Below, one piece after another: positions 21,744 to 57,768 of a stretch of DNA of 64,000 nt. This DNA is from Planctomycetaceae bacterium (lineage in GTDB: Bacteria > Planctomycetota > Planctomycetia > Pirellulales > Pirellulaceae): NCBI GenBank assembly GCA_002726515.1, contig PBTE01000181.1, positions 11,174-75,173 on the forward strand, given 5' to 3'. The position numbers and the translations under genes are program-made. How positions within the stretch are numbered: position 1 is the first letter of the stretch; each line of letters begins with the position of its first letter. Under the pieces are notes generated by a model. That model made no database searches. It worked only from the letters and a program-made list of their open reading frames with translations, and had not been told where the DNA came from.

Positions 21744-21759
21744 AGCGGAGGTCCGGATC

Positions 21760-38970: not shown

Positions 38971-39219
38971 CGGTGGTGTCGTTCCTGTTGTTGTCGGTAG
39001 AAATGTTGTGGGCGAAGAGGCCGGTCCGTTCTCGCCAGATTCCACAGTCCGGCGAGCGCTTCCAGCCGGGGCTCTTCGGCCCGTTTTGAACGGTTGGCCT
39101 GCTGCCGCCACGGGCCCTTGCGCATGCGGCGGAGACTGCGTCGCTGCACCGCTATGGTGACCGCTAAAACCCCGCTTGCAAAGGGGTAATTCGCCGCGCC
39201 ATCTGGTAGGATGGACTGC

Positions 39220-39945: not shown

Positions 39946-39958
39946 ATTGAACTGAGTC

Positions 39959-41416
39959 TCAGGGTGTGAAGCTGGCCACCACAGAGGACTGGCGCACGGT
40001 ACGTGATCGCGGCTCATACACCCTCACACTGATCTGCAATCCCCTTAAATCGACCGGGTAAGGAGGCGAAGTCTCGCGCTCCCCGGGGTCATCTACTCCC
40101 AAGAATCCGTCGTCGTCAACCCCGTTGGTACCTTCATCGATAAAACCATCCTGGTTTTGGTCTTGCTGGTCCTGCTCGTAGTGAAAAGACCAGGTGCAAT
40201 ACGTGGGTTCGTTTAAGATTTTGGATTTAAGATGTGGCAATCCTGCAAATCCTCGCTCGTCCGATACGACGGGATCCCTTGTGTAATACAAATCAACGTA
40301 CGCGCCACGAGCTGCCGCCGTACCCTCGCCAACCCAGATCCAATCCGGGTCACTTGGCGCTATGATCTGACGATCCCCACCAGGATCCTGAACGGACATG
40401 AGTGGTGCAAACCGATCGTAAACTCGCACATCGAAGGCAAGCACCCGCGTCAGCAGTACGTCGTCCCCCTGCCTGTGACCCGTCAGTGGAGTCAACCCGT
40501 TGCGAAGAACGAGAAATGGAAATCCCAGGCTCCTGTCGCGGGCAAAACGATTCTCGCGCCGCGTCAGATCCTCCAGCGAATTGGCGACCATGCCACCATC
40601 TTCAAATCGCGCGGAAATATCGTTGCCCAAGATGTCGTCAGAAGTTCCTAGGGCACCATCGGAACCAACTCCGCCGTTGAAGAAATCGCTCCCCGTCAAG
40701 GACACCGTCGAGGACACTTCCGAGACATTGACGAGCTCTCCCGCACGGGCAATGTCGAGATGTCGAGGCAGTACCAGCAAGACCCGGCGGTAGAGCGTTT
40801 TCGTCTCTCCAAAGTCATAGATTCCATTCAGGTTCAAGTCATCCAAATGCGGCGTGAATTGGGTCCATAAAATAATTTCGGCCACTTCGGACTCTATCGG
40901 TTTTCCATCATACAGAGTTCCCACAAAAGGCGCCCCTCGACTTCGGGCCGTGAACATAATGAGATCATCATTGTCTCCGGGTCGCGTATCGAAGTAGGGT
41001 TCTTCTGCTTCCGGTTCCCATAGCCCATTGGAATTGCCATCCCATCGGTCGATGTCAACTATAGAGTCTCCATCGGCATCTTTGTCGGTTTGCAATCCTT
41101 CGAGGTACTCGATGTAGCCTGCACCGTTTTGCGGATCGGACCACGCCTTGCCCGACACGGTAATTCCATCCAGATCCCGTTGAAGAACAGTCGTCGCAGC
41201 GCGGACTTGGCCGTTGAGCTCGATGTTCATCCGTCCTGAATGGATTCCATCGCCCAGCAGTTTGAAGACTTCCGTCAGGACAAGCATAAACATCAAGGTG
41301 ACCACCACCACGACCAACAGTTCGACCAGGGTAAATCCAGTGCGATTCCCGTCGATATTGCGTGTTCTGCGCGCCAATGCAAAAGATGGAAAGAATGTTG
41401 CAACTTGTCGCATCAC
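39959..41416 (-). CDS. large (485 aa) pseudopilin with prepilin-type N-terminal cleavage/methylation motif
   Basis: '...NRTG|FTLVELLVVVVVTLMFMLVLTEV', i.e. G/FTLxE with Glu at +5. It is the last gene of the pilus-like cluster. Confidence 0.75.
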   Translation of the reverse strand: MMRQVATFFPSFALARRTRNIDGNRTGFTLVELLVVVVVTLMFMLVLTEVFKLLGDGIHSGRMNIELNGQVRAATTVLQRDLDGITVSGKAWSDPQNGAGYIEYLEGLQTDKDADGDSIVDIDRWDGNSNGLWEPEAEEPYFDTRPGDNDDLIMFTARSRGAPFVGTLYDGKPIESEVAEIILWTQFTPHLDDLNLNGIYDFGETKTLYRRVLLVLPRHLDIARAGELVNVSEVSSTVSLTGSDFFNGGVGSDGALGTSDDILGNDISARFEDGGMVANSLEDLTRRENRFARDRSLGFPFLVLRNGLTPLTGHRQGDDVLLTRVLAFDVRVYDRFAPLMSVQDPGGDRQIIAPSDPDWIWVGEGTAAARGAYVDLYYTRDPVVSDERGFAGLPHLKSKILNEPTYCTWSFHYEQDQQDQNQDGFIDEGTNGVDDDGFLGVDDPGERETSPPYPVDLRGLQISVRVYEPRSRTVRQSSVVASFTP

Positions 41417-41430
41417 ATCACCTCGTACCT

Positions 41431-44400
41431 TTACTCGATGAAACGGCGCAACAGTACCGCTCGATCAACGTTGTGGTTCTTTCCCGGCTCGAAAGCGACG
41501 GGAATCGTCCGATCGACAATATAAAAGGCACGGTGTCGGTTGACCTCCCCCCCCTCCAAGCCGCGCTCCAAACCAGGTTCACCGGTTTGCGGATCGACTT
41601 CGAAATAACCGACCGTGATCCAAATCGCATACACGTTGGAGCGCGTTGTCACCAGATTCCCCAGCCGCTGCAAAAACTGGTAGCGAAAATAGGAGTGGCG
41701 GCTGTAGTGACTGTCAGCGGCCGCTGATGAGTTTTGAAACAGGAGCCTGCCTCTGTCAGCGAAGACACCCGCGGGCCTTAACAGCGTGGCGGCAATCTCG
41801 CGATGCGTGCCTGGTAACAAACCACCTGGTAACATTCCACTTGGAAGAGTCTCGCCGATTATGTTCTCGATTTTCGGTACTAATTGGGCCGATCCAAATG
41901 CTCGAAACGGGTTGCGGAACAAGGTGGGAAAGCCACTGAAACCGACAACAGGGTCGCCGCTTTGCGGGTATCCACGGCGACTTTCTGCCAACTGCTTATA
42001 GTCTGGCCCGGCAAAACCGTTTGTGACAGCATTCCAAACCTTTTCACTGTAAATCGTATTGATGTTAATTCGACCCGGATCACGAAAATACGACAGTTGA
42101 TTGAACGGAGCCTGATACTTTTCAGTCGCCGCGTTGCCGGCTTGAAAGACCACTGGATTCAACTGCATTGATGTACCCAGGAATCGGGAAGGCACATGGG
42201 TCAACTCGAAAACCCGGAACAATTCTGAAGCATCGTTGTTCACGAAGCCCGAATTGAAGAAATTCAGCAAATGGCGATAGCGGGAACTGTTGAAATTAGA
42301 ACTCGACGACTGGTACAGAGTGGGGTCGACTTTCCAGGGTACGTCGCCCGAAGCGGGCCAGGTAAACAAAGCCGTCAGCCGGGCCGAGCTCGTGTGTGGA
42401 ACGTGCAACAACTCGAGGTTGTTGACAAAAGGTCGATTCAACCACAAGAGCCAAGGAAAAGTGTTATTTTGATCGAGTTGATAGTTCCTGTTGCGATATC
42501 CCATCGTGTGCTGCAATTCTTCTCCAGGAGGACCATTAGGTATTCCATTAGGTATTCCCTTGTCTCCCCGGCCCGATTCCATGATCTCAATCGTCGGAAG
42601 ATAAGCCTGCCAAAGAGTGTTGGTCCCAGGAGCTTCAAAGTCACCTCGCTGGAGCGTGACAAACCTATCAGCAACCGTATTTGTTCCCTCGAATTCGCTG
42701 GGCTCTGGTGGAAACGGATCAGCGCCGACCTCGGTTTCGGTTTTACTGTTAAACACCGTGAGATTCACATACATGGAGTCGATCGTGCGGTACGGATTGG
42801 CCTGAGAATCGTAAGGAATCAGTGGGTTGGCCAACCGTTGTAGGTGAATGACCCTGAAATTTTCTCGAGTCCCGCCCTTCATGAGATAATGCTCTTGTTG
42901 GTGATCGGAGTCGTTATCTATATCTAACGGCGTATCAAGCGGGGGATCATACGCCGTTCCATTGATCGGGGGGGGTTGATATCCAGCGATCGGCGCTGAG
43001 ATGTTTAAAACTTCCGTGTCGCTGGAAATTCCAATTGCCAGACAGGTTGCGGGTGGACCTGGAGGCTGGCCCTCTTGACTCACCGTGACCGAGTAATTTT
43101 GTGGATCGAGCTCGATTTTTCGCTTTGCCGGTAACTCGCTGACATAAACGTTAGGGTTTCCTTGCGTGGACTCTCTTGCCGAACCGAGAACCGCAAATTG
43201 ACCCGGCTCCAAAGTCATATCTTGCGCTGGATCCGCACCATTAGCCCAATACTGGTGTCCGTCATTCTGAATATTAGGATTCAAGGTCTCCGGATCCTGG
43301 TCGGTGAAATAAACACTACGCTCGATGTCACCCGGGTTCGGTTCATCGTCCATGCCGTTGGTGGTCACAATCAGCAACCGCCAGACCGGGTCCCCTTCAG
43401 CCGGATCGTTCTGCGTCCGTTGATTGAGGCGAACTCCGAGCAGCTCAACGTAATCGTAGTTTAAATCATTGGTTTTGTAGTCATGGTAGAACTCCGCTGG
43501 CCTGCGATCCTCGCCTGTCCATGGATTATAGAGTTCGATGAACAATGATCCGCGAGGGCGTTCTCTCTGGTCATAGTCGTCATCATGATCGTCAGGTGCT
43601 TGTGCCTCCGGATGTTCCGGATGATAACCTTCGCCACCGTCATCATTGTCCAAATCTTCCGTGCGACGATCATGAAACGCTAACGTTTCGGTGATCAGCA
43701 GTTCGGGACGTTCACAACCCCAAACGATCCTGCGCTCATTGGGGTCGTCTTCTTCATCGGCTTCATCAACCTCTCCATCGAAGTCATTGTCGCGCTCATC
43801 ATTACGGCCATCTGTGGCCGGATCTCCGTTGACGTGCCAGCCATTGAACGGATTGATATCAAACTCAAAGGGTGTCATGATCGAGTCAGAATCGCGGAAA
43901 TCCACCACATTGATGGCCCACTGTGCTATCCCGATAGCTGTTTCCTTGGACGCAAGAGGGTCGAGTTCTTCCAGCGGTCCATGAAAATCGATGGTTTTGT
44001 TGGGTTCTATCAGAGCCATCATCAAAACATACAAGTGCCGAGCGTAAAGGTGCCGAGCCAGTTGGTTTCCGTTAACAGCATTGCCATCGTTCTCCAGATC
44101 CATCCAAACGCCAGCCAAAAACTCCATGTCGGCTTCCGATGGGTCGTCGACGACCAGATTTCTCGGACCGTCGATACCCCTTTGGCCGTCAAAGCCATCG
44201 CCGAACACACGATTTACGTCAAAACGCAAACCTTTGAGAAGGTCGGGGGACAGGAGTTTTTCGAGTTCCAGGCTGATCAACGCCTCGTCGGTAAAACCGT
44301 TCTGACGGAGTAGGCTGCGGACTCTGTCGACAATGCTGCCGGGGAACTTTGGCACGGCAATGTCGTCGCCGTTAGCAATCTTGCCCGGGAAACTGGGTAC

Positions 44401-46287: not shown

Positions 46288-46565
46288 CGCACCTTCTCCT
46301 TTTGGCAAACCCCTTTGGAACACATGTGGCTCACACCGCTGCCATTCCGGTTTGCCTGACATTTCACCCCTGAAATGATTTTTGTGGTCGCCCGTCAACC
46401 GTTTTTCGTTTTCCCGCTCGCTTGGGAAAGACTGCCGCCTCGCTCGACTCGTCGCCATCGCAGCGCAAGCTGCGGCCGCCTGTCACAAGATGTTAATCGA
46501 GAGCTCCTACTTTCATGCACTGTTCGTCGTGCTCCGCTTTCCTCCATTTCACCGCTTGTTGTGTT

Positions 46566-47756
46566 TTAGGAGCCCGTAAAATCGAGCCCGATCGTCTTCT
46601 CATAGACCGTTTGGACATTCTCCAGGATGACGCCATACACGACGCTGTTGGGATCACCATCAAAAATTTCGTGAATTCTCGTGTCCGGGCCGTTCAGTTT
46701 GGCTGTTAGTGAATAGTTCTGCTGTACAAGAGGGTCCTTCTCAGGCTCACCAATGGTACGACTGACCTGGTACCACTGCATATAGGGCGAATTCAATTTG
46801 ACGAGCAGCACCCAATCACCGTTGGAGATCTCCAGATCGGTCAACTCGTCCGATGCAAACTTGACATCCACTCCACCCAGACTGATACCCAATCGTAGGG
46901 CCGTCGCTGGCAAGACTCGTTCGCCCGTGGTGGAAGTGATCCTTTGATGGAACAAAACGATCGATGCTTTATAAAAGCTGCCGTCGGTAGAAACGGGATC
47001 AAGCATTACCAGCCAGGAAAAATATCCGTTGGATTGCCGCCGGCGACTGATCGAACTGAACAATTGTCGTGGTTGTTCGCTGGCTCGGTCGGGGATTTCA
47101 AACACCAAGTCGTCCTCAGATCGAAACGTGTCGGCGGCAGCTACGCGATCCGCCTCTCGTAACGCAACCGTTATCTGGTTGCCCATTTGCGGGGTCAACT
47201 GAAGCCTGCTTGGGAAGCAGCGCGCGATCCCAGGCGACGACGTTGGTGGGAATCCATTCTCTGGAAACATCGATGCGTTAAAGAGGATCGGATCGAGCAC
47301 GAGAGGAGGAGGAACTGGCAGGGGTGTACCATCAATTGCACGCCATGTAAGGGTGGTCGGAAAGATCGGAGGGTAGCCAGGTAAGATCGTAATAGGGTCT
47401 CGGACGGGATTCCCTAGGTCTTGACCGAAGACAGGTTGTCCAGTGTTGTAAAACCACTTGTCAGGTTGATTGAGTCCCATCACCGTGAAGTTGCGCCAGG
47501 CACGTTTAGCGACCAAAGCGGCAGCGTCATTGATGCTCCCCTGTCTGGTATCGTGTGCCGACAGGGGCAACAACGTCGCAATTCCCACCAGACCCAGGGT
47601 GACCACCAAAATCGCCATCAGCACCTCGATCAGGGTCAGACCACCTCGACCAGCGCCCGATCGGATCTGGATCGACCTGTCCAGCCGCTGCAAGGCTTTC
47701 GATTTTTGACATTCTGCGACAAACACGGGTATTTCATCTCCACAAACGAACATCAT
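46566..47756 (-). CDS. minor pseudopilin (396 aa), prepilin-type N-terminus
   Basis: '...GAGRGG|LTLIEVLMAILVVTLGLVGIATL'. The leader is long from the first ATG; a GTG 10 codons in, preceded by GGAGATG, is an alternative start. Confidence 0.65.
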   Translation of the reverse strand: MMFVCGDEIPVFVAECQKSKALQRLDRSIQIRSGAGRGGLTLIEVLMAILVVTLGLVGIATLLPLSAHDTRQGSINDAAALVAKRAWRNFTVMGLNQPDKWFYNTGQPVFGQDLGNPVRDPITILPGYPPIFPTTLTWRAIDGTPLPVPPPLVLDPILFNASMFPENGFPPTSSPGIARCFPSRLQLTPQMGNQITVALREADRVAAADTFRSEDDLVFEIPDRASEQPRQLFSSISRRRQSNGYFSWLVMLDPVSTDGSFYKASIVLFHQRITSTTGERVLPATALRLGISLGGVDVKFASDELTDLEISNGDWVLLVKLNSPYMQWYQVSRTIGEPEKDPLVQQNYSLTAKLNGPDTRIHEIFDGDPNSVVYGVILENVQTVYEKTIGLDFTGS

Positions 47757-47770
47757 CTGTCGGCCAATTG

Positions 47771-48808
47771 TTAAATTCCTCTCATCGACTGCGCCTGGAC
47801 GGCAAACTCACGAGCTAAATCGACAGTTGCTGCCGATTTGTTCTCTGACGTGGTAACCCGCCCCGTTAAATGCCTGATCGAAATCCAGCGGCTGTTTCCA
47901 TCCTCCAGATTTCCTGGTCCAAGCTGGTCAATGCGGCCCAGCAACAAGTGGAAGGCACTGGTCGGCCGAGCAATCATTCCGTTGATGATAAAACGCTCCA
48001 CGCCCCCGGCGGGACTGAACAGAATCGTCATGTCCGGCACGGTTAAAACGCCAGTTCGACCTTCCCCACAATTCACCATGTCGATGGCTACTGTTGGCGG
48101 TAGCTGCAATGGACTCACCAGGGACTGCAGTGGTCGACCGTAGCGAAATACCTGGAAAGGTACGAGAGTCGAGACGACTTGAGATCCTGCTTTGAAATAT
48201 CGCGTGTGATAGGTGGTTTTTTCGTACAACGTGATTTGTATCTTATCGGTATCTGTGTCATCGGGAGGAACTCTGATCCAGGACGCAATTTGATAGCGTG
48301 GTCCCTTACCATCAAAGCGGATGAAATCGTTGCCATCGACGTTATGGTAGATCGGATTTGTCGGATGATTGGAGACTCCGTGCAGTGTTACCACAATCGC
48401 ATTCCCCGGTGGCTCAGGCAAAGCAATTTCTGCGACAGCCAAATGATGATCTCCCGTGTAAGGCTCCGGAACCTCGGCCATCCACAATTCCAGGGCCGCC
48501 AGCAGAAGCACGTTTCCATTGTCATCGCGTAAGGGACGAACCGAGACCGCCACGGGGCGTTGCAGTTCGATGGCCCGGGACTGGGCCGCGGTCAGGTAGG
48601 TACTCACCTGCCGGGCCGCCTCGCGGATGTCTCGTCCTTCGCGCAGCGGGCTGACAAAAGCCGCCGCAAGGCCCATCAACATCAGCAGGATGGTGACCAC
48701 CACCAGAAGTTCAACCAGCGTAAAGGCCGCTCGACAAAACGCCGCGCGCGGCAAGGTCCCGCTGACGCTGCGCGTTTGTCGAGTGTTGTAAAACAGCCTG
48801 ATTGCCAT
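47771..48808 (-). CDS. minor pseudopilin (345 aa), prepilin-type N-terminus
   Basis: '...CRAA|FTLVELLVVVTILLMLMGLAAA'. Ala replaces Gly at the cleavage position. Confidence 0.7.
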   Translation of the reverse strand: MAIRLFYNTRQTRSVSGTLPRAAFCRAAFTLVELLVVVTILLMLMGLAAAFVSPLREGRDIREAARQVSTYLTAAQSRAIELQRPVAVSVRPLRDDNGNVLLLAALELWMAEVPEPYTGDHHLAVAEIALPEPPGNAIVVTLHGVSNHPTNPIYHNVDGNDFIRFDGKGPRYQIASWIRVPPDDTDTDKIQITLYEKTTYHTRYFKAGSQVVSTLVPFQVFRYGRPLQSLVSPLQLPPTVAIDMVNCGEGRTGVLTVPDMTILFSPAGGVERFIINGMIARPTSAFHLLLGRIDQLGPGNLEDGNSRWISIRHLTGRVTTSENKSAATVDLAREFAVQAQSMRGI

Positions 48809-48838
48809 GATGGATTACCAGTAAAACGACGGCTGCTA

Positions 48839-49828
48839 TCAGCCGCCTATCAAGTGATTGTGAATGTTGTCCGCATTGTCGAGCTTGCCGTCATCGTCGA
48901 AATCGATTGGTTCGCCAATCTGAACACCATCCTCCGTTTTATAGTACGGGTCATTCCGGGGTAATGTTTTCGAATAATTAAACATTCCAGCGACATCTGA
49001 GAGGCCGATCCTCGTATCGTAGATGCGATCCGGACCGGCCGAGTAGATGTATGGATACAGAACAAAGGTTCCCTGTTGTTCCGCATAAACGTTGTGCGGA
49101 TCAAAAGGATCGGGTTTGCTGCGGTCACGAGTTTGTTTGGGCGAAACCAGGCCGGGTGCCCACCGCAAAAACTCGATGGGCATTCCCCACGCATCGAGAA
49201 TCTCCGGCATGCCGTCATCGTCCACGTCTCCCACTTCATCGTCCGACAAAATGGTAAAACCGCGCGGTCCCGGCCGCGCGTTAAGCGTGATGATCATGTA
49301 GAGGCACTCTGCACCCTGATACTTCTCAGTCCACCCGGAAATACCATCTTCTGCCGGTCCTTCTCTTTCCACTGAGTCGGAAAAATCGTAGTAGGCCTGA
49401 GCAACCGCCGAGCGGACCGAGGAGTCCGCAGGAGGATCTTCAACATCTGCCTTGCGGTCCGGGAGTTCGGTCCGCAGCAGTTCCCGCAGAACATCGAGTC
49501 GCCGTTGGTTCCGCAGATTCCGTAGATTTTTGGCATCCGCTGTAAACGCTTCGATGTTTGGGTATTGAGCAGGATCGATCACCGAATCGACGTCAAAAAA
49601 GATGCGCCGCGAAAAATAACTGTTCCACAATCCGGCAATGACTCGATCCAGTTTCACGATCCGCGACCGGGTCTTTTCACGATAGGCCACTTCCATGGCG
49701 CCGGTCATCGTGAACAGCACGAGTCCGGAAAGAATGGACACGATCAGGATCGAGACCAGCAGTTCGACCAGGGTAAACGCGTTACGCCTGGCGGTGAAAA
49801 CCGACCTTCGCGCGTGTTGAGTGGACAT
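48839..49828 (-). CDS. minor pseudopilin (329 aa), prepilin-type N-terminus
   Basis: 'MSTQHARRSVFTARRNA|FTLVELLVSILIVSILSGLVLF'. Confidence 0.7.
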   Translation of the reverse strand: MSTQHARRSVFTARRNAFTLVELLVSILIVSILSGLVLFTMTGAMEVAYREKTRSRIVKLDRVIAGLWNSYFSRRIFFDVDSVIDPAQYPNIEAFTADAKNLRNLRNQRRLDVLRELLRTELPDRKADVEDPPADSSVRSAVAQAYYDFSDSVEREGPAEDGISGWTEKYQGAECLYMIITLNARPGPRGFTILSDDEVGDVDDDGMPEILDAWGMPIEFLRWAPGLVSPKQTRDRSKPDPFDPHNVYAEQQGTFVLYPYIYSAGPDRIYDTRIGLSDVAGMFNYSKTLPRNDPYYKTEDGVQIGEPIDFDDDGKLDNADNIHNHLIGG

Positions 49829-50045
49829 CTGCCATCATCTCCGCTGCATCCCCTGAATGCATAGTTTTTATCTTTAACGCTGGCCTGCGTTGTTCTGCCG
49901 AATTCAGTTCTGCTCTGTGGACGGCGGTCTGTCGTCTGCAGCCTGCCGAAAATGGAGCTGTCCGACTCAAGACCGACCACCTGAAATTTCGCTGTTTAAA
50001 AATACTTCCTGCAACAAGCCCTTCGCTTGCCACCTGAGACCTTTC

Positions 50046-50921
50046 TTACGGAATGGAGTTGCTTAACGTGTTGGTGCTGAAGCTGGTGATGTTGTCCGCA
50101 TCATATTCGTCGTAGTTAAAACCTTCCGGATACCACTTTCCGTCGCCATTTAGGTTTCCGAAGTGGCCATCCCTGCCGGCCGAAATCAACTGGAATGAAT
50201 CGGGATTGACATACTTTTGCCGGGGCTTGGTGTAGGTTTCGGACCACATGTAGGGCATCGCCGTACCCCCATTTCCCGCAGCGAAAGTCTTTGGATTATT
50301 TTCTGACAGCTCGTAGCTCCTGACAGCTCCCTGATCACTTCGACTGTCAAAGTAGACAATCGGTGACTGGGGCATCTTTGAGGGAGCCAGAATTTCGCCC
50401 GGTGTGTCGAGGTCCAGATCGTCATCTGGATCGTCTGCCATACCGTCGCCGTCACTGTCAACCGCAACAATCATCGCGACATTGAATTCGATAAATGGTT
50501 TTCGTTCGCTGTCTGGAATTCCATCGCCGTTGATATCGCCGCCAGTAATCGGATATTCGGGATTGGCAAAGAATCCACGGAGCCAGAACAACAGCGCCTG
50601 ACGGGGATCGAGAGGAAGCACTTCGCTAACCTGCCGCAACTCCTGCCTTCTGGGAAAGATCCGATTCAGGTGATCGATTACGTGCTGATGGTTGGTGAAA
50701 TCTGGTGGGTATTCGCCGTATTCGACCTTGTAAGCATCCAAGGCTTGCGCAACCAACTTGACCTCGACGATGGCCGTACCGTCTTCTGCTTTTTGCATCG
50801 CGACAAAGATCGCGGGAACGGCCAGCCCGGCCAGAATCCCAATAATCACGACCACGACCAGGACTTCCACGAGCGTGAATCCGGTTTGTTTTGCACCTGC
50901 CTGCTGGTTCATCCCCGTCAC
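50046..50921 (-). CDS. GspG-like major pseudopilin / type IV pilin (291 aa)
   Basis: 'MTGMNQQAGAKQTG|FTLVEVLVVVVIIGILAGLAVPAI' is the canonical GspG/PilA N-terminus. The C-terminal 'QLISAGRDGHFGNLNGDG' resembles the GspG 'SLGKDG..G' Ca-binding loop. Confidence 0.8.
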   Translation of the reverse strand: MTGMNQQAGAKQTGFTLVEVLVVVVIIGILAGLAVPAIFVAMQKAEDGTAIVEVKLVAQALDAYKVEYGEYPPDFTNHQHVIDHLNRIFPRRQELRQVSEVLPLDPRQALLFWLRGFFANPEYPITGGDINGDGIPDSERKPFIEFNVAMIVAVDSDGDGMADDPDDDLDLDTPGEILAPSKMPQSPIVYFDSRSDQGAVRSYELSENNPKTFAAGNGGTAMPYMWSETYTKPRQKYVNPDSFQLISAGRDGHFGNLNGDGKWYPEGFNYDEYDADNITSFSTNTLSNSIP

Positions 50922-51041
50922 TCCTTTTCCTGCCCGTGTGTGCCCCGTTCCGCTTTGTTTTCTCTGGTTCCTGTTTTGTCTCGTACTTCCGCCGGCCAGC
51001 TTGTGGTCTTTGTTATCGTTCGGGTCACCTGCCGGCTCGCT

Positions 51042-52439
51042 TTAGGACAGCTCGGTGATCAGTTGTACCAGGGGCATAAATAATGCGATCACAATGAAGC
51101 CCACCGCGAAGCCCAAAAACACAATCAACAAGGGTTCTAAAATGGCCACCAGGCCATCGGTCATGACGCGCACCGTCTCCTCGTTCTCATCGGCCACCTT
51201 GTAAAGCATCGTGTCCAACTCGCCCGTCTCTTCGCCGACGTCCACCATGTTCACCACGATGTCGTCGACAATTCGGCCATTCATCCGCACCAGGTAAGCC
51301 AGCACCCCGACCAGGGCCAGACCACCCACCAGGGAAGCCAGCATTTGGGTCAGTTCGGGTACGAACATGAACGGCACCGGCCCCATGGCAAACAGGCAGA
51401 CCCAGAAAAACATCGCCACCGGGTGAAACCCCGGCTTGGAAAACTGTTTCATGGGGTTGGAAATCGTATCACCGTCACGAATCGCATCACCGATCTTGCT
51501 GAACATCCGCTCAAAAACGGCGTTACCACACGTCTCCCGCGTGATCGCCAAACCCTCCAGGATCGGCACGCCGCTCGACACCAGGGTGCCCAACGTCCGC
51601 GTCGAACGAGCAAGGATATTCTTTTCCAGAAGGGGTCCGATGACAAACAGCTTGATCATGAACATGTCCCACCCCATCCGGCCGTCGCGAAACTTGCGGA
51701 TGATCTTCACAAAAATTACCATGAAAATCGGAAAGCCCGGGATGAGCCACCAGAAGTCGACCACCGTGTGGGAAACCTTCGTCAACAGCACCGTGATCGG
51801 CGGTAGTTCACTGCCAAAGTCCAGAAAAATCTTTTCGAACTGGGGCACAATCTTGATCATGATAAAGGCCAAAATGCTGACCGCCACCAACACGACCACG
51901 CAAGGATAGATCATGGCTCCCTTCACCTTGCGCTTCAGTGACTCGGCCCGCTCCATAAACTCCGACAAGCGGCGCAAAATCACTTCCAGGGCACCACCCG
52001 CCTCACCCGCCCTGATCATGTTGATGTAGAGTCGATTAAAGACTCTGGGTGACTTGGACAGGGCCTCCGAAAGCGTTGAACCTGCTTCAATGTCTTCGCA
52101 CGTATCCAGCACCGCATTCTGTAGCTTGCCGGGTCTCATTTGACCTTCCAGGATGCGCAGACTGCGGAGGATCGGCAGTCCAGCATCTTGCAAGATCGAG
52201 AGCTGGCGAGTGAAGGCCGTGAGCGCCTTCGAGGACACGCCACCGATGGCGAGCGACTTCTTGCGTTTCCCGCGGCCACCCTCATCCGTCTGCTTGCGTA
52301 TCTTCTTGACAGCAATCTTGGTGACAAAATAACCCTGCTGCCGAATGATCGCCTGGGCTTCATCTTCGTTGTCAGCCTCGATCTCGTCTTTAATCTCTTG
52401 GCCCGTCTTATCCATGGCCATGAATTGATAGGTTGGCAT
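51042..52439 (-). CDS. type II secretion system protein F / type IV pilus platform protein PilC
   Basis: 465 aa. Two T2SSF repeats ('LSILQDAGLPILRSLRIL', 'LGTLVSSGVPILEGLAIT', '...GEETGELDTML') and three TM segments. Confidence 0.9.
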   Translation of the reverse strand: MPTYQFMAMDKTGQEIKDEIEADNEDEAQAIIRQQGYFVTKIAVKKIRKQTDEGGRGKRKKSLAIGGVSSKALTAFTRQLSILQDAGLPILRSLRILEGQMRPGKLQNAVLDTCEDIEAGSTLSEALSKSPRVFNRLYINMIRAGEAGGALEVILRRLSEFMERAESLKRKVKGAMIYPCVVVLVAVSILAFIMIKIVPQFEKIFLDFGSELPPITVLLTKVSHTVVDFWWLIPGFPIFMVIFVKIIRKFRDGRMGWDMFMIKLFVIGPLLEKNILARSTRTLGTLVSSGVPILEGLAITRETCGNAVFERMFSKIGDAIRDGDTISNPMKQFSKPGFHPVAMFFWVCLFAMGPVPFMFVPELTQMLASLVGGLALVGVLAYLVRMNGRIVDDIVVNMVDVGEETGELDTMLYKVADENEETVRVMTDGLVAILEPLLIVFLGFAVGFIVIALFMPLVQLITELS

Positions 52440-52574
52440 CGATCTGTCCCGGCTTAAAGTGCTTTGTGGGAAGTGGTCATTTACATTCCACAGGTTGTGA
52501 GCCGTGTGGCCGTCTGTTTTGCAGGTCTGCGACGCGCAATGATTCTCCGTTCAGTCCTCTGGTCTGCTGGCTCG

Positions 52575-54302
52575 CTATTCTTCGACAATGGTCTCACGAA
52601 TGACTTCCTCGGCCGAGGTCAGGCCCTGGTGCATCATCTTCTCGCCACCCTGTCGAAGCGCCAGCATGCCGTGTCGTCTGGCAGCGACGCGCAATTCATC
52701 GGCGGTGCACTTGTTGAGCACCATCTCGCGCATCTCGTCATTCATTATCATCAACTCAAAAATGCCAATGCGACCCTTGTAGCCCGTGTTGTTACAAACG
52801 TCGCAGCCGCGACCTCGAAAGAATTTTTCTCCGTTCAGGTTGTCTCGACTTTTGTAGTCAAGCTGTGCCAATACTTCGTCGCTGGGATCGATTTCTTCTT
52901 TGCATTGGCTGCAAATACGCCGCACCAGGCGTTGGGCCAGGATTCCTTCGACGGTGGCACAGATCATGAATTCGGGTACTCCCATGTCTCGCAACCGTGT
53001 GATGGTGCTGGGAGCGTCGTTGGTGTGCAGCGTGCTGAAGACGATATGGCCTGTCAACGCGGCCTGAATGGCAATCTCGGCGGTCTCATAGTCGCGAATC
53101 TCGCCAACCAGAATCACGTCCGGATCCTGTCGCAGGATGGATCGCAGGCAAGCCGCAAAAGTCACTCCGATATCCGGGTCAATGGGAATCTGCACAATCC
53201 CGTCGATGTCATACTCGACGGGATCTTCGGTGGTGATCAATTTGTCGGCAATCTCGTTCATCTCCGTCAACGCGGAGTACAACGTGGTGGTCTTGCCCGA
53301 ACCGGTCGGACCCGTCACCAGGATGATGCCGTTGGGCTTTTTCATGAGCTCGCGAAAATCGCGCATCACCACTTCGTCCATCCCGACATTGTTCAAGTCG
53401 AGTTCCACCACGGACCGGTCGAGGATTCGCAGGACACAACTCTCTCCGAACATGGTCGGCATCACACTGACACGCAAATCAACGGGGTGCCCGCCCACGG
53501 TCAGTTCAATCCGACCATCCTGGGGCAAGCGTCGCTCGGCGATGTCCAGGTTAGCCATGACCTTGATACGAGTCGTAATGGCAAAGGAAAGATGTCGAGG
53601 TGGCGGCACCATTTCGTACAAGACTCCATCCGCCTTGATACGGATCCGGAACTCATCCTCAAATGGCTCGAAGTGAACGTCACTGGCTTGGTCCTTGATT
53701 GCCATCAGCAGGACCATGTTCAACAGCTTGCGCACAGGAGCACTGTCGGCCAACGCTTCGACATGGGTCAGATCGATGGCCCCCTCTTCATTCAAGGCTT
53801 CCGCGGCCGCCTGCAAATCCGTGTCTTCGCCCATGTCGCTGACGATCTTTTCAATGCTCTCCGATTCGCCACCGTAGAATTTCTCCAACGTATCGACGAT
53901 ATCAGCTTCGGTCGCGACGACCACGCGAATGTCATACCCCAGAAACGTCCGCAGTTCATCCTGAACCGAAAGATTCTGCGGATCGCACATGGCCACCGTG
54001 AGCGTGTTGCTGTCCTTGTCAAAATGCACGGGTATGATGCGGTACAACTGGGCCATCGGCTCGGTGACGTGTTCCAGAACCTCCTTGGCAATCTGGGTTT
54101 CACGCAGATTAATGACCTGCATCCCCATCTGTTCGGCCAGCCCCTGAGCCAGCTGTTCCTCCGTGATCAGCCCCATCCCTTCGGCCATCTTGCCAAGCAG
54201 CTCACCGGGAGAACGCCGTTGCTCCTCGAGCAGCAGCCCGAGTTGCTCCTCCTGGATATAACCCAGGTCGACCAGAATTTGTCCTATTCGTCGAATGGCC
54301 AT
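52575..54302 (-). CDS. GspE/PilB-type secretion/pilus-extension ATPase (575 aa) with N-terminal GspE_N domains
   Basis: Walker A 'LVTGPTGSGKTTTLYS'. Asp/His boxes 'DPDVILVGEIRD' and 'GHIVFSTLHTNDA'. C-terminal tetracysteine 'CSQCK...CDVCNNTGYKGR'. Confidence 0.9.
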   Translation of the reverse strand: MAIRRIGQILVDLGYIQEEQLGLLLEEQRRSPGELLGKMAEGMGLITEEQLAQGLAEQMGMQVINLRETQIAKEVLEHVTEPMAQLYRIIPVHFDKDSNTLTVAMCDPQNLSVQDELRTFLGYDIRVVVATEADIVDTLEKFYGGESESIEKIVSDMGEDTDLQAAAEALNEEGAIDLTHVEALADSAPVRKLLNMVLLMAIKDQASDVHFEPFEDEFRIRIKADGVLYEMVPPPRHLSFAITTRIKVMANLDIAERRLPQDGRIELTVGGHPVDLRVSVMPTMFGESCVLRILDRSVVELDLNNVGMDEVVMRDFRELMKKPNGIILVTGPTGSGKTTTLYSALTEMNEIADKLITTEDPVEYDIDGIVQIPIDPDIGVTFAACLRSILRQDPDVILVGEIRDYETAEIAIQAALTGHIVFSTLHTNDAPSTITRLRDMGVPEFMICATVEGILAQRLVRRICSQCKEEIDPSDEVLAQLDYKSRDNLNGEKFFRGRGCDVCNNTGYKGRIGIFELMIMNDEMREMVLNKCTADELRVAARRHGMLALRQGGEKMMHQGLTSAEEVIRETIVEE

Positions 54303-54441
54303 GGTGAGAGTGGTGGTCCGTTGGGGTTGGTTCTGTTGCCCTCTACCGAACTCGGAAGGGGGACCCGGTTTTTATAATGGCGTGCCAACACACGAGCGGC
54401 GTTGGAACATGGAAAACTTCTCGCTTCCTTCTGGCCGCGCG

Positions 54442-55563
54442 CTACGTCGGCTGCAACTCGGCTTCCTCCTCCTCCTGACCCTCGTCGCTAATACCCTGTC
54501 TGGCCCGGGCAACCCGCTTGGCCAGTTCTTCCTGAGAGTTGGCTTTCGCCAGGGCATCTTCGATCGTGATTATCTCGCGCCGCCAGAGATCGAAGATGGC
54601 ATCGTCCAGAAGTTGCATGCCGAGCTTGGCACCCGTTTGAATGGCTGAATTGATGCGGAACGTTTTGTTTTCACGAATCAAGTTGGCAATTCCGGATGTC
54701 ACCACCAACAGTTCATGCGCCGCAACTCGACCTCCATCGATTCTGGGAATCAAGCATTGCGACAAGACACCAATGATGGAAGTGGAAAGTTGGGTGCGAA
54801 TCTGCTCCTGCTGGTTCGTGGGAAATACGTCGATGATACGGTTCACCGTTCCCTGGGCTCCCGTTGTATGCAAAGTACCAAACACGAGGTGACCCGTCTC
54901 GGCCGCTTGAATCGCTGCTTCAATGGTCTCCAGATCACGCATTTCACCAACCAGAATCACGTCCGGGTCCTGTCGCAAAGATCGGCGAATCGCCTCGGCG
55001 AAACTCGGCACATCGACCCCTACCTCCCGTTGATTGACGGTCGACTTCTGGTGCTGATGGTAGAACTCGATCGGATCCTCAATCGTGATGATATGATGAT
55101 CGACTTCCTCGTTGATATAGTTAACCATGCTGGCCAAGGTGGTAGTCTTTCCCGAACCGGTCGGACCGGTCACCAAAAACAGACCGCGCGGTTTCATGCA
55201 CAAGTTGATAGCAGCGGGCGGCAACCCCAGCACCTCGAAGGAGAGGAACTCGTTGGGGATCTGCCGCAACACCATGCCGACATTCCCCTTTTGTCGGAAG
55301 ATCGACACGCGAAAGCGGGCCGCGTCGCCAAAAGCAAACCCGAAGTCGCTTCCGCCCTGCTCCTGCAACTCTCGTTGACAACGCTCGGGTGCAATTGCCT
55401 TCATCAGTTCGACGGTGTCCTCCGGCTCCAGCACCTTCGTCTCCAGCCGCCGCATGCGACCGTGCAAGCGGAACACCGGTGGCTGGCCCACCGCAATGTG
55501 GATGTCACTGGCCTCCTGCTTGACGCAAGCCTGCAGGAGTTTGTCGATCAGAATGGTTGGCAT
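54442..55563 (-). CDS. pilT: twitching-motility (retraction) ATPase PilT
   Basis: 373 aa with no N-terminal extension. 'DIHIAVGQPPVFRLHG', Walker A 'LVTGPTGSGKTTTLAS', 'DPDVILVGEMRD', 'GHLVFGTLHTTGA', and the PilT-type 'AHELLVVTSGIANLIRE'. Confidence 0.9.
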   Translation of the reverse strand: MPTILIDKLLQACVKQEASDIHIAVGQPPVFRLHGRMRRLETKVLEPEDTVELMKAIAPERCQRELQEQGGSDFGFAFGDAARFRVSIFRQKGNVGMVLRQIPNEFLSFEVLGLPPAAINLCMKPRGLFLVTGPTGSGKTTTLASMVNYINEEVDHHIITIEDPIEFYHQHQKSTVNQREVGVDVPSFAEAIRRSLRQDPDVILVGEMRDLETIEAAIQAAETGHLVFGTLHTTGAQGTVNRIIDVFPTNQQEQIRTQLSTSIIGVLSQCLIPRIDGGRVAAHELLVVTSGIANLIRENKTFRINSAIQTGAKLGMQLLDDAIFDLWRREIITIEDALAKANSQEELAKRVARARQGISDEGQEEEEAELQPT

Positions 55564-56019
55564 GGTGAATGGGTGTCTGTGGTCTGTCTGTTTTTCGCCC
55601 TCAACCGAGAGGGCTCCAGGTTATCGGATCACGTTCTCACAAAAGCCGCGGCCAGCAGCAGCACACCTCCCGCCACTTCCAAAGGAACTAAGATCCCCAT
55701 GATTTGTCCGTGAACGCCTCGCTGCCCAAAACGTTGTTTCTGTTACTACCCAGATCTGTCCGGGGCTGTTCCTAGATACCAAAGTTGTTCGTCACACAAT
55801 CCTTGGCTGACCCGTGGCAAGGTGATTATTCCCCGTGGCCAGTCCGAACTCAAGCCAGCGGTTCATTTTGAGCTGCCGGGGCTGACTCAGTTTGGCCGCC
55901 CATGAACCTCTTTATGTAGGGCCGGGCCGGGTGGCCAGGGAATTATACGCCGCAAGTGATGTGGCCCCTTCCCGGTTTTTCAGGTCCAACCCGCAGATTT
56001 TATCTATTTTACCAAGGGT

Positions 56020-57768
56020 CTAGCTCGTTGGAGCTGCCATTTGCTGCAGGATTCCAAAGTCATCCTCCGAAGGTTTGGCGACCCGATAGACTTCTTCCAG
56101 GGTCGTGACCCCGTTTAAAACCTTGTCGATTCCATCAGCGTAAAGTGTTATCATTCCTTGTCTTATAGCCTCTTTTCGGATCGCAACGGCCGACTCCCCG
56201 GCAAAGATCAGTTCGCGAATTCTGCTGCTGACCGGCATCATTTCAAAAATCCCTAAACGGCCGTGAAAGCCTCCTCTTTGACATCTTCCGCAACCCTTGC
56301 CTCGCGCAAATTCTCCCGTTTTTGCCAATTCTGGGGTGATGCCGGCTGCCTCCAGTGCCGCCTCGTTGGGTTGATAGGATTCCTTGCAATGGGAACAAAT
56401 TACCCGTATCAGGCGTTGGGCAATCAGCCCAATGACGCTGCTGGCAACAAGATAGGCGGGTACCCCCAAATCGACCATACGTGTCACAGCACTGGGCGCA
56501 TCGTTCGTATGAAGCGTACTGAAAACCAAGTGTCCAGTTAAAGCCGCCTGGATTCCCATCGATGCCGTCTCTAAATCCCGCATTTCACCGACCAGAATCA
56601 CGTTGGGAGCTTGTCGTAACATGGACCGAATCACGCGGGCAAAATCGAGTCCGATCTGGTGGCGGATCTCCACCTGGTTGATGCCGGGCAAGTAGTACTC
56701 CACGGGGTCTTCAGCCGTGATGATCTTCCGGTCCGGTCGATTCATCTCGTTCAGGACAGCATAGAGCGTCGTGGTCTTGCCTGACCCGGTCGGGCCGGTC
56801 ACCAGGATAATCCCGTTGGGTCGCCTCAGCAGGTCCCCGAACCGGTCGTGGTTGGTCTGTGACAGGCCCAGTTGCTGAACTCCGATCCTGATATTGTCCT
56901 TGTCGAGCAGGCGCATGACCACGGACTGGCCGTGATTGGTCGGTATCACACTCACCCGCAAGTCGAGTTCCTTTCCGGCCGTGTCGACTTTGATCCGGCC
57001 ATCCTGGGGCCGACGACGCTCCGCAATGTCGATTCTGGCAAGGATTTTCACACGGGAAATAAGGGGTCCCAACATCCGCCGGGGCGGGCTATCCCGTTCA
57101 ATCAGGCGACCATCAATACGATAGCGAATGCGAACCCGTTCTTCGAACGGTTCGATGTGAATGTCTGAGGCGCGTAGCTGAACGGCTTCGGTAATCATCA
57201 GTTGAACCAGGCGTACGATGGGAGCACTGTTCTCATCGACAACCTCGTCTTCTGAAATTTCTGCATCCTCCGTCTCGGTAAAATCGATGGCTGTGTCGGT
57301 AAACTCTTGCAGCATCGAGTCCGCACTTTCCTCTGCAATTTGACCGTAATAACGGTTGATCGCTTCGTGAATACTTTCTCGTGGAGAAAGTGCCATTTCG
57401 ATTTTCTTGTTGAGGATAAAACGCAACTTGTCCATCGTTTCCAGGTCATACGGATCGCAAACGATGACGGTCAACGTCTCATCTTCTTCCTTGTAAGGCA
57501 GCACGCTGTTTTCACGAGCCACCGATTCCGGGATCAATTCGACCACCGAGGGCGGAATCACGGTGTCTTCCAGCACGAGGTACTCCAACCCGTGCTCCTG
57601 GGCAACCGCCCGCATGACTTCATCGCCCGTGGCATACCCCAAGTGAATCAGTTCGTCCGGCAAAGAACTCCCATTCTGAGCCGCCACCGCCTGGGCATCA
57701 GCCAGTTGGTCTGTGCTGATCACTCCGCGTTGGATCAGGATTTCAGTGAATTTGACGCTTTTTGCCAT
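56020..57768 (-). CDS. second GspE/PilB-type ATPase paralog (582 aa)
   Basis: N-terminal GspE_N ('FTEILIQRGVISTDQLADAQA'). Walker A 'LVTGPTGSGKTTTLYA', 'APNVILVGEMRD', 'GHLVFSTLHTNDA'. Zn-binding 'CSHCK...CGRCQRGGFHGR'. Confidence 0.9.
   Translation of the reverse strand: MAKSVKFTEILIQRGVISTDQLADAQAVAAQNGSSLPDELIHLGYATGDEVMRAVAQEHGLEYLVLEDTVIPPSVVELIPESVARENSVLPYKEEDETLTVIVCDPYDLETMDKLRFILNKKIEMALSPRESIHEAINRYYGQIAEESADSMLQEFTDTAIDFTETEDAEISEDEVVDENSAPIVRLVQLMITEAVQLRASDIHIEPFEERVRIRYRIDGRLIERDSPPRRMLGPLISRVKILARIDIAERRRPQDGRIKVDTAGKELDLRVSVIPTNHGQSVVMRLLDKDNIRIGVQQLGLSQTNHDRFGDLLRRPNGIILVTGPTGSGKTTTLYAVLNEMNRPDRKIITAEDPVEYYLPGINQVEIRHQIGLDFARVIRSMLRQAPNVILVGEMRDLETASMGIQAALTGHLVFSTLHTNDAPSAVTRMVDLGVPAYLVASSVIGLIAQRLIRVICSHCKESYQPNEAALEAAGITPELAKTGEFARGKGCGRCQRGGFHGRLGIFEMMPVSSRIRELIFAGESAVAIRKEAIRQGMITLYADGIDKVLNGVTTLEEVYRVAKPSEDDFGILQQMAAPTS

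What the first reader, a model, noticed from the sequence alone, without database searches (positions are those of the whole stretch)
39959..57768. 18-kb pilus/T2SS-hybrid locus: two GspE/PilB ATPases + PilT + GspF + G-H-I-J-K-like pseudopilin series
Ten co-oriented genes are arranged E-like ATPase / PilT / E-like ATPase / F / G-like major pseudopilin / three minor pseudopilins / giant K-like / one more pseudopilin. The E-F-G-(H-I-J)-K order is that of type II secretion operons. The locus also carries a PilT retraction ATPase and a second extension ATPase, which canonical T2SS lack. All pseudopilins are far larger (291-485 aa, plus the 1618-aa giant) than classical GspH/I/J/K at 120-330 aa. 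I see no secretin, GspL/M or PilMNOP in the window. The locus may therefore be a retractable fibre machine of unclear class, neither a textbook T4aP nor a T2SS.
Basis: partly seen in the sequence, partly recalled or inferred. Interest (0 to 1): 0.7.

Follow-up and report, generated by a model that had tools for sequence, protein, structure and literature searches.

The report
Planctomycete hybrid pilus/secretion-type filament operon
This 18-kb operon, conserved across hundreds of planctomycete genomes but unstudied, pairs the extension and retraction motors of a type IV pilus with oversized secretion-system-type fibre subunits and a 1,618-residue tip protein.

Summary
Ten co-oriented minus-strand genes at 39959-57768 encode two PilB/GspE-family ATPases, a true PilT, a GspF/PilC platform, five prepilin-type proteins and a 1618-aa giant.

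The interpretation ("hybrid, neither textbook T4aP nor T2SS") is supported and sharpened.
- Motors look like T4aP. PilT passes its NCBIfam cutoff. Both large ATPases have the PilB/MshE architecture and fall outside enterobacterial GspE in my tree.
- E2 carries a c-di-GMP-binding MshEN motif.
- Profile comparisons assign p345 to GspH, p396 to GspI/PilV and p485 to GspJ.
- No secretin, PilMNOP, GspC/L/M or prepilin peptidase lies in the window or in the flanks I could read.

The gene order is colinear in all 42 related loci with enough flank. I found no paper describing the system.

Most likely it is a c-di-GMP-gated, retractile filament capped by a giant K-like adhesin. Its function (adhesion or polymer capture) is inferred. 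Verdict: new variant of a known kind; interest 0.6.

The parts
56020..57768 (-). E1: 582-aa PilB/GspE-family extension ATPase. It has an N-terminal MshEN-type domain with a degenerate c-di-GMP motif, intact Walker A/B and His boxes, and a CxxC...CxxC zinc motif.
   Evidence: Pfam T2SSE 9e-131 and MshEN 1e-23. TIGR02538 PilB scores 607 and TIGR02533 GspE 606, both below cutoff. NF053729 scores 30.9, below its cutoff of 38. Best PDB match is Myxococcus PilB at 483 bits, against EpsE at 425. Orthologues form a 100% bootstrap clade separate from E2.
54442..55563 (-). PilT retraction ATPase, 373 aa, with the GIANLIRE variant of the AIRNLIRE motif.
   Evidence: TIGR01420 scores 454.8 against a cutoff of 319.1. 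Best PDB matches are Aquifex PilT at 374 bits and P. aeruginosa PilT at 342; PilU scores 259. Median identity to orthologues is 74%.
52575..54302 (-). E2: 575-aa PilB-like extension ATPase with a canonical tandem MshEN c-di-GMP-binding motif at residues 5-58.
   Evidence: Pfam T2SSE 6e-136. NF053729 c-di-GMP motif scores 43.6 against a cutoff of 38. PilB model scores 621.5 and GspE model 600. Best PDB match is Geobacter PilB at 552 bits, against EpsE at 421. Sister to the T4aP PilB clade with 51% bootstrap. 42% identical to E1.
51042..52439 (-). GspF/PilC inner-membrane platform protein, 465 aa.
   Evidence: Pfam T2SSF 4e-58 in three stretches. TIGR02120 GspF scores 351.8, below its cutoff of 424. 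PilC models score 319-326.
50046..50921 (-). G: 291-aa GspG-type pilin, presumed major subunit. It has no cysteine and has acidic DxDxDG-type insertions.
48839..49828 (-). p329: second GspG-like pseudopilin, with a DAWGxPIxF ... YSAGPD ... DNIxNH pattern.
   Evidence: N_methyl 6e-06. hhalign against the G family gives 98.9% probability over about 100 N-terminal columns. hhalign against GspG gives 4e-10. The C-terminal motif was read by eye from the sequence and the consensus.
47771..48808 (-). p345: GspH/FimT-like minor pseudopilin.
   Evidence: All 25 family members hit TIGR01708 GspH and TIGR02596 Verru_Chthon cassette D, below cutoff. The longest hhalign match is to GspH, 86 columns.
46566..47756 (-). 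p396: GspI/PilV-like minor pseudopilin. The true start codon is uncertain; the prepilin motif sits at residues 39-44 of the ORF.
   Evidence: 24 of 25 family members hit TIGR02523 PilV in the N-terminal part, below cutoff. The best hhalign partner is GspI, 3.7e-5 over 61 columns.
39959..41416 (-). p485: GspJ/PilW-like minor pseudopilin. Accessory in the sense that BLAST detected it in only a subset of related loci.
   Evidence: N_methyl 9e-05; weak hits to PRK10557 (PpdC) and Verru_Chthon C. The best hhalign partner is GspJ, 5e-5 over 63 columns. Found by BLAST in 11 of the 65-67 loci with at least about 2 kb of downstream flank, and in both cultured strains examined.

Best explanation
The locus is a self-contained operon for a planctomycete-specific subtype of type IV filament machine. 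It combines T4aP-type motors with T2SS-type filament proteins.

Proposed mechanism:
1. Prepilins are inserted in the cytoplasmic membrane and processed by a prepilin peptidase encoded elsewhere.
2. An H-I-(J)-K priming complex assembles on the GspF/PilC platform. The 1618-aa K-like protein lacks Glu5 and forms the distal cap.
3. The PilB-like ATPases then polymerise the large GspG-type subunit (291 aa, possibly also the 329-aa paralogue) beneath the cap. E2 is probably switched on by c-di-GMP through its MshEN motif.
4. PilT depolymerises the fibre, so the filament cycles between extension and retraction.

The giant multidomain tip is most plausibly the ligand-binding or adhesive element. The biological role is then surface adhesion or capture and reeling-in of polymers.

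What is shown: the gene content, the family and fold assignments, the phylum-wide conservation, and the absence of outer-membrane or alignment components in the locus. What is inferred: the assembly order, the division of labour between E1 and E2, c-di-GMP control, extracellular versus periplasmic location, and the cargo or ligand.
For: - Gene content and HMM assignments.
- PilT is genuine: TIGR01420 scores 454.8 against 319.1. PDB PilT matches reach 374 bits against 259 for PilU.
- E1 and E2 are full-length PilB/MshE-type proteins with intact catalytic motifs.
- E1 and E2 are old paralogues. They are 42% identical to each other, each has orthologues at 51-88% identity, and each forms a separate 100% bootstrap clade.
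- The E2 MshEN c-di-GMP motif is above its cutoff.
- G has a GspG fold.
- The giant has a GspK/XcpX-like module and an N-terminus without Glu5.
- p345, p396 and p485 assign to H, I/V and J.
- The operon order is colinear in all 42 loci with at least 9.3 kb upstream of the giant. Motors show 61-74% median identity and pilins 25-32%.
- The same operon occurs in two cultured strains, and nothing conserved lies upstream of E1.
- Precedents for giant PilX-type cap pilins exist in cyanobacteria (HpsA/PilX_EPS) and Thermus (ComZ) (bioRxiv 10.64898/2026.02.12.705559). Modular tip pilins act as adhesins (PMC8179133).
Against: - No secretin, PilMNOP, GspC/L/M or prepilin peptidase is in the window or the readable flanks. 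The envelope-spanning part of the machine is therefore unknown, and I could not check the rest of any genome.
- Foldseek found nothing for the giant.
- The giant's N-terminal 418 residues were not modelled, so packing of alpha1 against the C-terminal sheet is not shown.
- The ATPase tree is neighbour-joining with few references. Deep nodes have 25-53% bootstrap support.
- There is no expression or experimental data.
- The functional role (adhesion or capture) is pure inference.
Confidence: 0.8

Rival explanations
1. This is an ordinary type IVa pilus locus. The usual PilMNOPQ, PilD and PilY1 genes lie elsewhere, and the pilins are merely divergent.
For: - PilT is present and genuine.
- Both large ATPases score higher against full-length PilB structures than against GspE. 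E2 is sister to PilB.
- The pilB-pilT-pilC order is typical of many T4aP loci (my own knowledge).
- T4aP genes are commonly scattered across the genome (PMC6668835).
Against: - The major subunit is closest in fold to GspG and lacks the disulphide-bonded D-region; it has no cysteine.
- No member of the locus matches the PilY1 domain.
- No minor pilin reaches a T4aP model cutoff.
- A second extension ATPase is conserved inside the operon.
- Both ATPases are below the PilB equivalog cutoff.
Confidence: 0.12
2. This is a true type II secretion system that exports folded proteins, or polysaccharide as in the cyanobacterial Hps/T4P system. It would use a periplasmic pseudopilus piston, with PilT adding active retraction.
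For: - The pseudopilin complement is G, H, I, J, K-like.
- GspF is the best-scoring platform model.
- There are weak hits to HpsB and HpsC.
- Public annotation of the G family reads 'type II secretion system protein / PulG'.
- In this window only, polysaccharide genes lie nearby: UDP-glucose dehydrogenase at 62445-63761, and Wzy_C and Bac_transf beyond the window.
Against: - No GspC, D, L or M lies in or next to the operon in any locus examined.
- A conserved PilT is not part of canonical T2SS.
- The ATPases carry the PilB/MshE N-terminal extension and fall outside the enterobacterial GspE clade.
- A 1618-aa cap and 290-480-aa subunits are hard to reconcile with a short periplasmic piston.
- The neighbouring polysaccharide genes are not conserved in other loci.
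Confidence: 0.1
3. This is a DNA-uptake (competence) pilus, analogous to the Thermus and Vibrio competence pili with a large tip pilin such as ComZ.
For: - PilT-driven retraction and a large cap pilin resemble the ComZ/PilX_Com systems.
- There are weak sub-threshold hits of several pseudopilins to ComGC/D/E/F models.
- The GspK-type module contains the INLNT helix-hairpin-helix-like motif.
Against: - No ComEA, ComEC or DprA lies in the window or in related loci.
- The Com-model hits cover only the shared N-terminal helix.
- Nothing specific to DNA binding was found.
Confidence: 0.04

Closest known systems
Type IVa pilus machine (PilB-PilT-PilC with FimU-PilVWX priming complex; Myxococcus, Geobacter, Pseudomonas)
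   Same: - A PilB-type extension ATPase with an MshEN-type N-terminus.
- A genuine PilT retraction ATPase.
- A PilC-type platform.
- The B-T-C gene order.
- A set of four core minor pilins, including a cap without Glu5.
   Different: - Two extension ATPases are conserved in one operon.
- The major subunit has the GspG fold, is cysteine-free and is about twice the normal size.
- There is no PilY1; instead the cap itself is 1618 aa.
- No PilMNOPQ lies in the locus.
- The PilB models are not passed at cutoff.
Type II secretion system pseudopilus (GspG-H-I-J-K with GspE/F)
   Same: The filament proteins correspond one-to-one by fold or profile: G, H, I, J and K. GspF is the best-scoring platform model. 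The E-F-G...K gene order is similar.
   Different: - PilT is present.
- GspC, D, L, M and O are absent from the locus.
- The ATPases are outside the GspE clade and longer at the N-terminus.
- All subunits are 2-5 times larger.
- K precedes J.
Verru_Chthon cassette proteins A-D (TIGR02600/02598/02599/02596) of Verrucomicrobiota
   Same: The logic is the same: one giant protein (A) plus three prepilin-type proteins (B, C, D), in a sister phylum of the PVC group. p345 hits D in 25 of 25 family members, p396 hits B in 9 of 25, and 2 of 24 giants hit A at E 0.009.
   Different: All scores are far below the family cutoffs. The Verrucomicrobial cassettes are described in my recollection as stand-alone four-gene cassettes, not fused to a motor operon. 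Their function is also unknown.
Cyanobacterial PilX_EPS/HpsA with HpsB-D, and Thermus ComZ (giant cap pilins)
   Same: A PilX/GspK-position cap pilin is enlarged by inserted domains to more than 1,280 aa and encoded next to PilV/PilW/FimT-type minor pilins. It is proposed to replace PilY1 as tip plug and adhesin (bioRxiv 10.64898/2026.02.12.705559).
MSHA pilus ATPase MshE / c-di-GMP-binding PilB
   Same: E2 has the tandem 24-residue MshEN c-di-GMP motif above the NCBIfam domain cutoff. Retraction relies on PilT, as in Vibrio MSHA (PMC9815625, abstract).
   Different: No other Msh components are present, and the pilins are not MshA-like.

Membership tests
Canonical T2SS (Gsp) | GspE-type ATPase reaching the equivalog model | tested here: not met
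   TIGR02533 scores 605.8 (E1) and 600.1 (E2) against a cutoff of 630.25. Both carry an extra PilB/MshE-type N-terminal segment. In the NJ tree both lie outside the E. coli/Providencia GspE clade.
Canonical T2SS (Gsp) | GspG major pseudopilin | tested here: inconclusive
Canonical T2SS (Gsp) | Minor pseudopilins GspH, I, J, K | tested here: inconclusive
Canonical T2SS (Gsp) | Secretin GspD and assembly-platform proteins GspC/L/M encoded with the system | tested here: not met
   None is present among the main ORFs of the window, in the contig flanks, or next to the operon in related loci. Presence elsewhere in the genome could not be tested.
Canonical T2SS (Gsp) | No dedicated PilT retraction ATPase | tested here: not met
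   PilT lies inside the operon, above its cutoff, and is conserved in 38 of 42 loci; the remaining loci are cut at the flank.
Type IVa pilus | PilB assembly ATPase | tested here: inconclusive
   TIGR02538 scores 607 and 621.5 against a cutoff of 675.65. The best PDB matches are full-length PilB. E2 is sister to PilB at 51% bootstrap; E1 is unresolved.
Type IVa pilus | PilT retraction ATPase | tested here: met
   TIGR01420 scores 454.8 against 319.1. PilT structures score 374 bits and PilU 259. The IANLIRE motif is visible in the sequence.
Type IVa pilus | Type IVa major pilin (PilA/PilE-like globular domain with a C-terminal disulphide) | tested here: not met
Type IVa pilus | PilM/N/O/P alignment complex and PilQ secretin | not testable with these tools
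   Absent from the window and flanks. T4aP genes are often multi-locus (PMC6668835), and I could not scan a whole genome.
Type IVa pilus | PilY1/PilC tip adhesin with minor pilins FimU-PilVWX | tested here: not met
   No PilY1-type Pfam hit in any operon protein or in 24 giants. p396 resembles PilV only in the N-terminal 45 residues and below cutoff.
Verru_Chthon cassette A-D (TIGR02596-02600) | Proteins reach the subfamily model cutoffs | tested here: not met
   D scores 33.5 against 70. B scores 13.8 against 51.4. C scores 16.5 against 256.5. A has no hit for the window protein, and 2 of 24 homologues hit it at E 0.009.
Cyanobacterial Hps / PilX_EPS set | HpsB/HpsC equivalog models, and a beta-solenoid inserted in the PilX fold | tested here: not met
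MshEN c-di-GMP-binding ATPases | Tandem MshEN c-di-GMP motif at the N-terminus | tested here: met
   E2 scores 43.6 on NF053729 against a cutoff of 38. The sequence RIGQILVDLGYIQEEQLGLLLEEQ followed by LLGKMAEGMGLITEEQLAQGLAEQ fits the published consensus, which I quote from memory. E1 scores 30.9, below 38, and is degenerate. Binding itself was not tested.

The most novel reading that the evidence does not exclude
This operon encodes the long-unidentified pili-like fibres that emerge from planctomycetal crateriform structures and bind dextran (Boedeker et al. 2017, PMC5394234).

On this reading it is a thick, retractile filament built of about 270-aa GspG-type subunits and capped by a roughly 175-kDa K-like glycan-binding tip. 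It works as a c-di-GMP-gated 'fishing rod' that reels polysaccharides into the enlarged periplasm. It may use an outer-membrane conduit other than a classical secretin. The two PilB paralogues might drive two filament types, or separate priming from elongation.
Probability: 0.15. Interest if true: 0.85.

Novelty: new variant of a known kind. Interest (0 to 1): 0.6.

Why it matters
Type IV filaments are usually sorted into T4aP, T4bP, Tad, MSH, Com and T2SS. This is a widespread, strongly conserved lineage that mixes the defining parts of two of those classes. It has T4aP motors including PilT, T2SS-type G/H/I/J/K filament proteins, a duplicated extension ATPase, and a 1618-aa GspK-like cap.

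The giant was confirmed at 590 places in a one-genome-per-species collection, and its C-terminal segment defines more than 1,600 clusters at 50% identity. The giant is annotated only as 'hypothetical protein'.

The locus gives a concrete genetic handle on two open questions in planctomycete cell biology. One is what the fibres of the crateriform structures are made of. The other is how these bacteria take up whole polysaccharides.

It also bears on a question in T4F evolution: how the T2SS pseudopilus set relates to the T4aP priming complex. If T2SS derived from T4aP, a PilT-bearing system with G-K-type subunits looks like an intermediate or mosaic state.

Tried and rejected
- Pfam and NCBIfam on the giant and on 24 homologues gave nothing usable. 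There were only stray Excalibur, Dockerin and EF-hand hits, plus 2 of 24 weak TIGR02600 hits.
- A profile of the giants against PDB sequences gave no hit at E <= 10.
- Profiles of the five pseudopilin families against PDB sequences matched only the shared N-terminal helix.
- hhalign of giants against a 24-sequence GspK alignment was colinear but weak: E 1e-4 at the N-terminus, 0.018 for the INLNT motif and 0.5 for a C-terminal strand. I use it only as support.
- A 94-sequence alignment failed.
I spent the last protein search on the G family instead.
- The E. coli pO157-type plasmid had no intact gspK, so I used the Providencia gene.
- Promoter and terminator scans gave counts no higher than the shuffled-sequence expectation. 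Rfam found nothing in the operon. No ORF of interest lies in the 456-bp E1-PilT gap.
- Six of the seven literature searches looked for a description of a planctomycete pilus or T2SS-like operon; the other looked for Verru_Chthon and Hps precedents. None found such a description.
- I considered that p485 might be universal. BLAST finds it in only a subset of loci, but it is too divergent for a firm count.
- I considered a recent tandem duplication of the ATPase and rejected it. E1 and E2 are only 42% identical and form separate old clades.

Full report
**1. What is there**

The interval 39959-57768 holds ten co-oriented minus-strand genes. Pfam and NCBIfam assign them as follows.

| Gene | Coordinates | Size | Assignment |
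|---|---|---|---|
| E1 | 56020-57768 | 582 aa | T2SSE 9e-131, MshEN 1e-23 |
| PilT | 54442-55563 | 373 aa | TIGR01420, 454.8 bits against a cutoff of 319.1 |
| E2 | 52575-54302 | 575 aa | T2SSE 6e-136, MshEN; NF053729 c-di-GMP motif 43.6 against 38 |
| F | 51042-52439 | 465 aa | T2SSF 4e-58 |
| G | 50046-50921 | 291 aa | class III signal peptide with Glu5 |
| p329 | 48839-49828 | 329 aa | class III signal peptide with Glu5 |
| p345 | 47771-48808 | 345 aa | class III signal peptide with Glu5 |
| p396 | 46566-47756 | 396 aa | class III signal peptide with Glu5 |
| giant | 41431-46287 | 1618 aa | no family hit |
| p485 | 39959-41416 | 485 aa | class III signal peptide with Glu5 |

The giant ORF has no family hit. 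The alignment of homologues starts about ten residues before RRG|VLLLVVL. This N-terminus has the Gly at position -1 but no Glu5, as in GspK and PilX.

The operon is bounded by a + strand DUF1080-type gene (39211-39945) and a divergent TIM-barrel gene (58066-58878).

Pfam scans of the other main ORFs of the window found ordinary planctomycete housekeeping genes. There is no secretin, PilMNOP, GspC/L/M or prepilin peptidase. About 10 kb beyond each end of the window on the public contigs adds none. The source is a Tara Oceans MAG labelled Planctomycetaceae bacterium (GCA_002718815.1).

**2. It is a conserved operon, not a local oddity**

- The giant has more than 500 full-length homologues of 1500-2100 aa. 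Every one with a name is annotated as hypothetical and comes from Planctomycetota.
The 80 best include Lacipirellula limnantheis I41, Blastopirellula, Mariniblastus, Bythopirellula and Thermoguttaceae.
- BLAST of six-frame ORFs shows the order E1-T-E2-F-G-p329-p345-p396-giant to be colinear in all 42 loci with at least 9.3 kb upstream of the giant.
- Motors are strongly conserved, with median identity of 61-74%. Pilins evolve fast, at 25-32%.
- Two cultured strains (SH139 and Novipirellula artificiosorum) have the same operon. In both it is followed by a p485 homologue, and unrelated genes lie upstream of E1.
- BLAST detected p485 in only 11 of the 65-67 loci with at least about 2 kb of downstream flank.
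- Some loci carry two tandem giants.
- The giant's C-terminal 329 aa defines 1651 clusters at 50% identity with E <= 1e-10. The segment is always at the protein's C-terminus.

**3. Motors**

PilT is genuine. Aquifex and Pseudomonas PilT score 374 and 342 bits, against 259 for PilU.

E1 and E2 both have intact Walker, Asp and His boxes and the tetracysteine motif.

- Against NCBIfam, the PilB and GspE equivalogs score nearly the same, and both are below cutoff.
- Against PDB sequences, full-length PilB wins. For E2, Geobacter PilB scores 552 against EpsE at 421. For E1, Myxococcus PilB scores 483 against EpsE at 425.
- I built a neighbour-joining tree on 482 columns with 200 bootstraps. References were Myxococcus and Geobacter PilB, Thermus PilF, Acinetobacter PilB, Neisseria PilF, two enterobacterial GspE, a 579-aa Comamonas protein annotated GspE and a cyanobacterial PulE-family protein, with PilT as outgroup.
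- E1 orthologues form a 100% clade, and so do E2 orthologues.
- E2 is sister to the PilB clade at 51%. E1 branches outside that pair at 25-34%. The GspE pair is separate.
- E1 and E2 are 42% identical to each other, so they are old paralogues.
- E2 carries a textbook tandem MshEN c-di-GMP motif. E1's copy is degenerate.

**4. Filament proteins**

Sequence profiles of the five pseudopilin families match solved structures only in the N-terminal helix. I therefore used structure prediction.

- N-terminus 9-32 against GspK 3-26, E 1e-4.
- GRININT against VNINT, E 0.018.
- A C-terminal strand, E 0.5.

*The minor pseudopilins.*
- In the p345 family, all 25 members hit GspH and Verru_Chthon cassette D.
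- In the p396 family, 24 of 25 members hit PilV.
- hhalign against small Gsp reference alignments gives the best or longest partners as G to GspG (1.4e-14), p329 to GspG (4e-10), p345 to GspH (86 columns), p396 to GspI (3.7e-5) and p485 to GspJ (5e-5).

The series therefore reads G, G', H, I, K, J. All of these proteins are 2-5 times the size of the E. coli and Providencia counterparts.

**5. Interpretation**

The locus fails the T2SS membership test. It has PilT, it lacks GspC/D/L/M, and its ATPases lie outside GspE. It also fails the T4aP test. The major subunit is GspG-type, there is no PilY1, no PilMNOPQ is in the locus, and the models are below cutoff. It clearly belongs to the type IV filament superfamily.

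The best-supported mechanism is a retractile filament.
1. An H-I-(J)-K complex primes assembly on the F platform. The Glu5-less giant forms the cap.
2. PilB-type ATPases polymerise the large G-type subunit. E2 is probably c-di-GMP-gated.
3. PilT retracts the fibre.

The giant, with Ig-like or beta-sandwich domains and DxDxDG-type acidic motifs, is the natural candidate for the ligand-binding tip.

Precedents exist for giant cap pilins. These are cyanobacterial PilX_EPS/HpsA and Thermus ComZ, and modular adhesive pilins. The Verrucomicrobial 'Verru_Chthon cassette' (giant A plus prepilin-like B, C, D) looks like a distant relative within the PVC group.

The following are inferences: the assembly order, the division of labour between E1 and E2, the location of the filament (extracellular or periplasmic), and the ligand.

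**6. Literature**

Six of the seven full-text searches looked for a description of this operon and found none. The seventh looked for Verru_Chthon and Hps precedents and did not find one either.

Planctomycete papers mention 'type IV pili' only generically. Boedeker et al. 2017 describe 12-nm and 6-nm pili-like fibres emerging from crateriform structures. These fibres bind dextran, and their composition is unknown.

Denise et al. 2019 note 'generic' or chimeric TFF systems and peculiar T2SS outside Proteobacteria, but do not mention Planctomycetes.

A link between this operon and the crateriform fibres is therefore a hypothesis. I rate it at about 0.15.

**7. Limits**

- I could not scan any whole genome for secretin, PilMNO or PilD.
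- The ATPase tree is small, and its deep nodes are weak.
- There are no experimental data.

**Verdict.** This is a new variant of a known kind.

Noticed in passing
window 30600-31532 (+): A 310-aa protein matches the Pfam KaiA C-terminal domain at residues 211-297 (PF07688, E 7.9e-08, 33 bits against a cutoff of 22.2). KaiA is regarded as a cyanobacterial clock component, so a KaiA-like domain in a planctomycete MAG is unexpected.
   Followed up: no
L033, L037, L065, L076, L046 (related loci); also L041 versus L055 from one MAG: Several genomes carry two giant genes in tandem at the end of the operon. One MAG has an extra lone giant away from the operon. This suggests exchangeable or alternative tip proteins.
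   Followed up: partly
window 3409-4599 versus 39959-57768: In the NCBI assembly of the same MAG (GCA_002718815.1), the left part of the window maps to contig PBFX01000094.1 and the operon to PBFX01000106.1. The window therefore appears to come from another assembly in which the two are joined. A 227-kb Tara scaffold carries at least the operon side.
   Followed up: partly
window 38001-40000: GC content rises to 63%, against about 53-55% elsewhere. The rise spans the N-terminal part of the M17 aminopeptidase gene and the DUF1080-type gene just downstream of the operon.
   Followed up: no
window 51042-52439 (-): The GspF/PilC platform is 465 aa. The NCBIfam GspF and PilC models align only to residues 1-333, and Pfam T2SSF is split into three stretches. 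This suggests an insertion in the second T2SSF repeat.
   Followed up: no
L048 versus L053: A contig labelled Phycisphaerales (L048) has a p485-type N-terminus identical to that of a Thermoguttaceae contig (L053). This is probably a binning or labelling error. The family may be restricted to the class Planctomycetia.
   Followed up: no
window 19995-23025 (+): A PSCyt2/PSD1 (DUF1549/DUF1553) gene is followed by a DUF1501 gene. This is the typical planctomycete gene pair of unknown function.
   Followed up: no
L085 (Comamonas odontotermitis plasmid NZ_CP083452.1, 301539-303278): A 579-aa protein annotated 'GspE' sits next to rfbC and an F-family gene. It is as long as PilB/MshE and does not group with the enterobacterial GspE pair in my tree. 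The annotation may be too specific.
   Followed up: no
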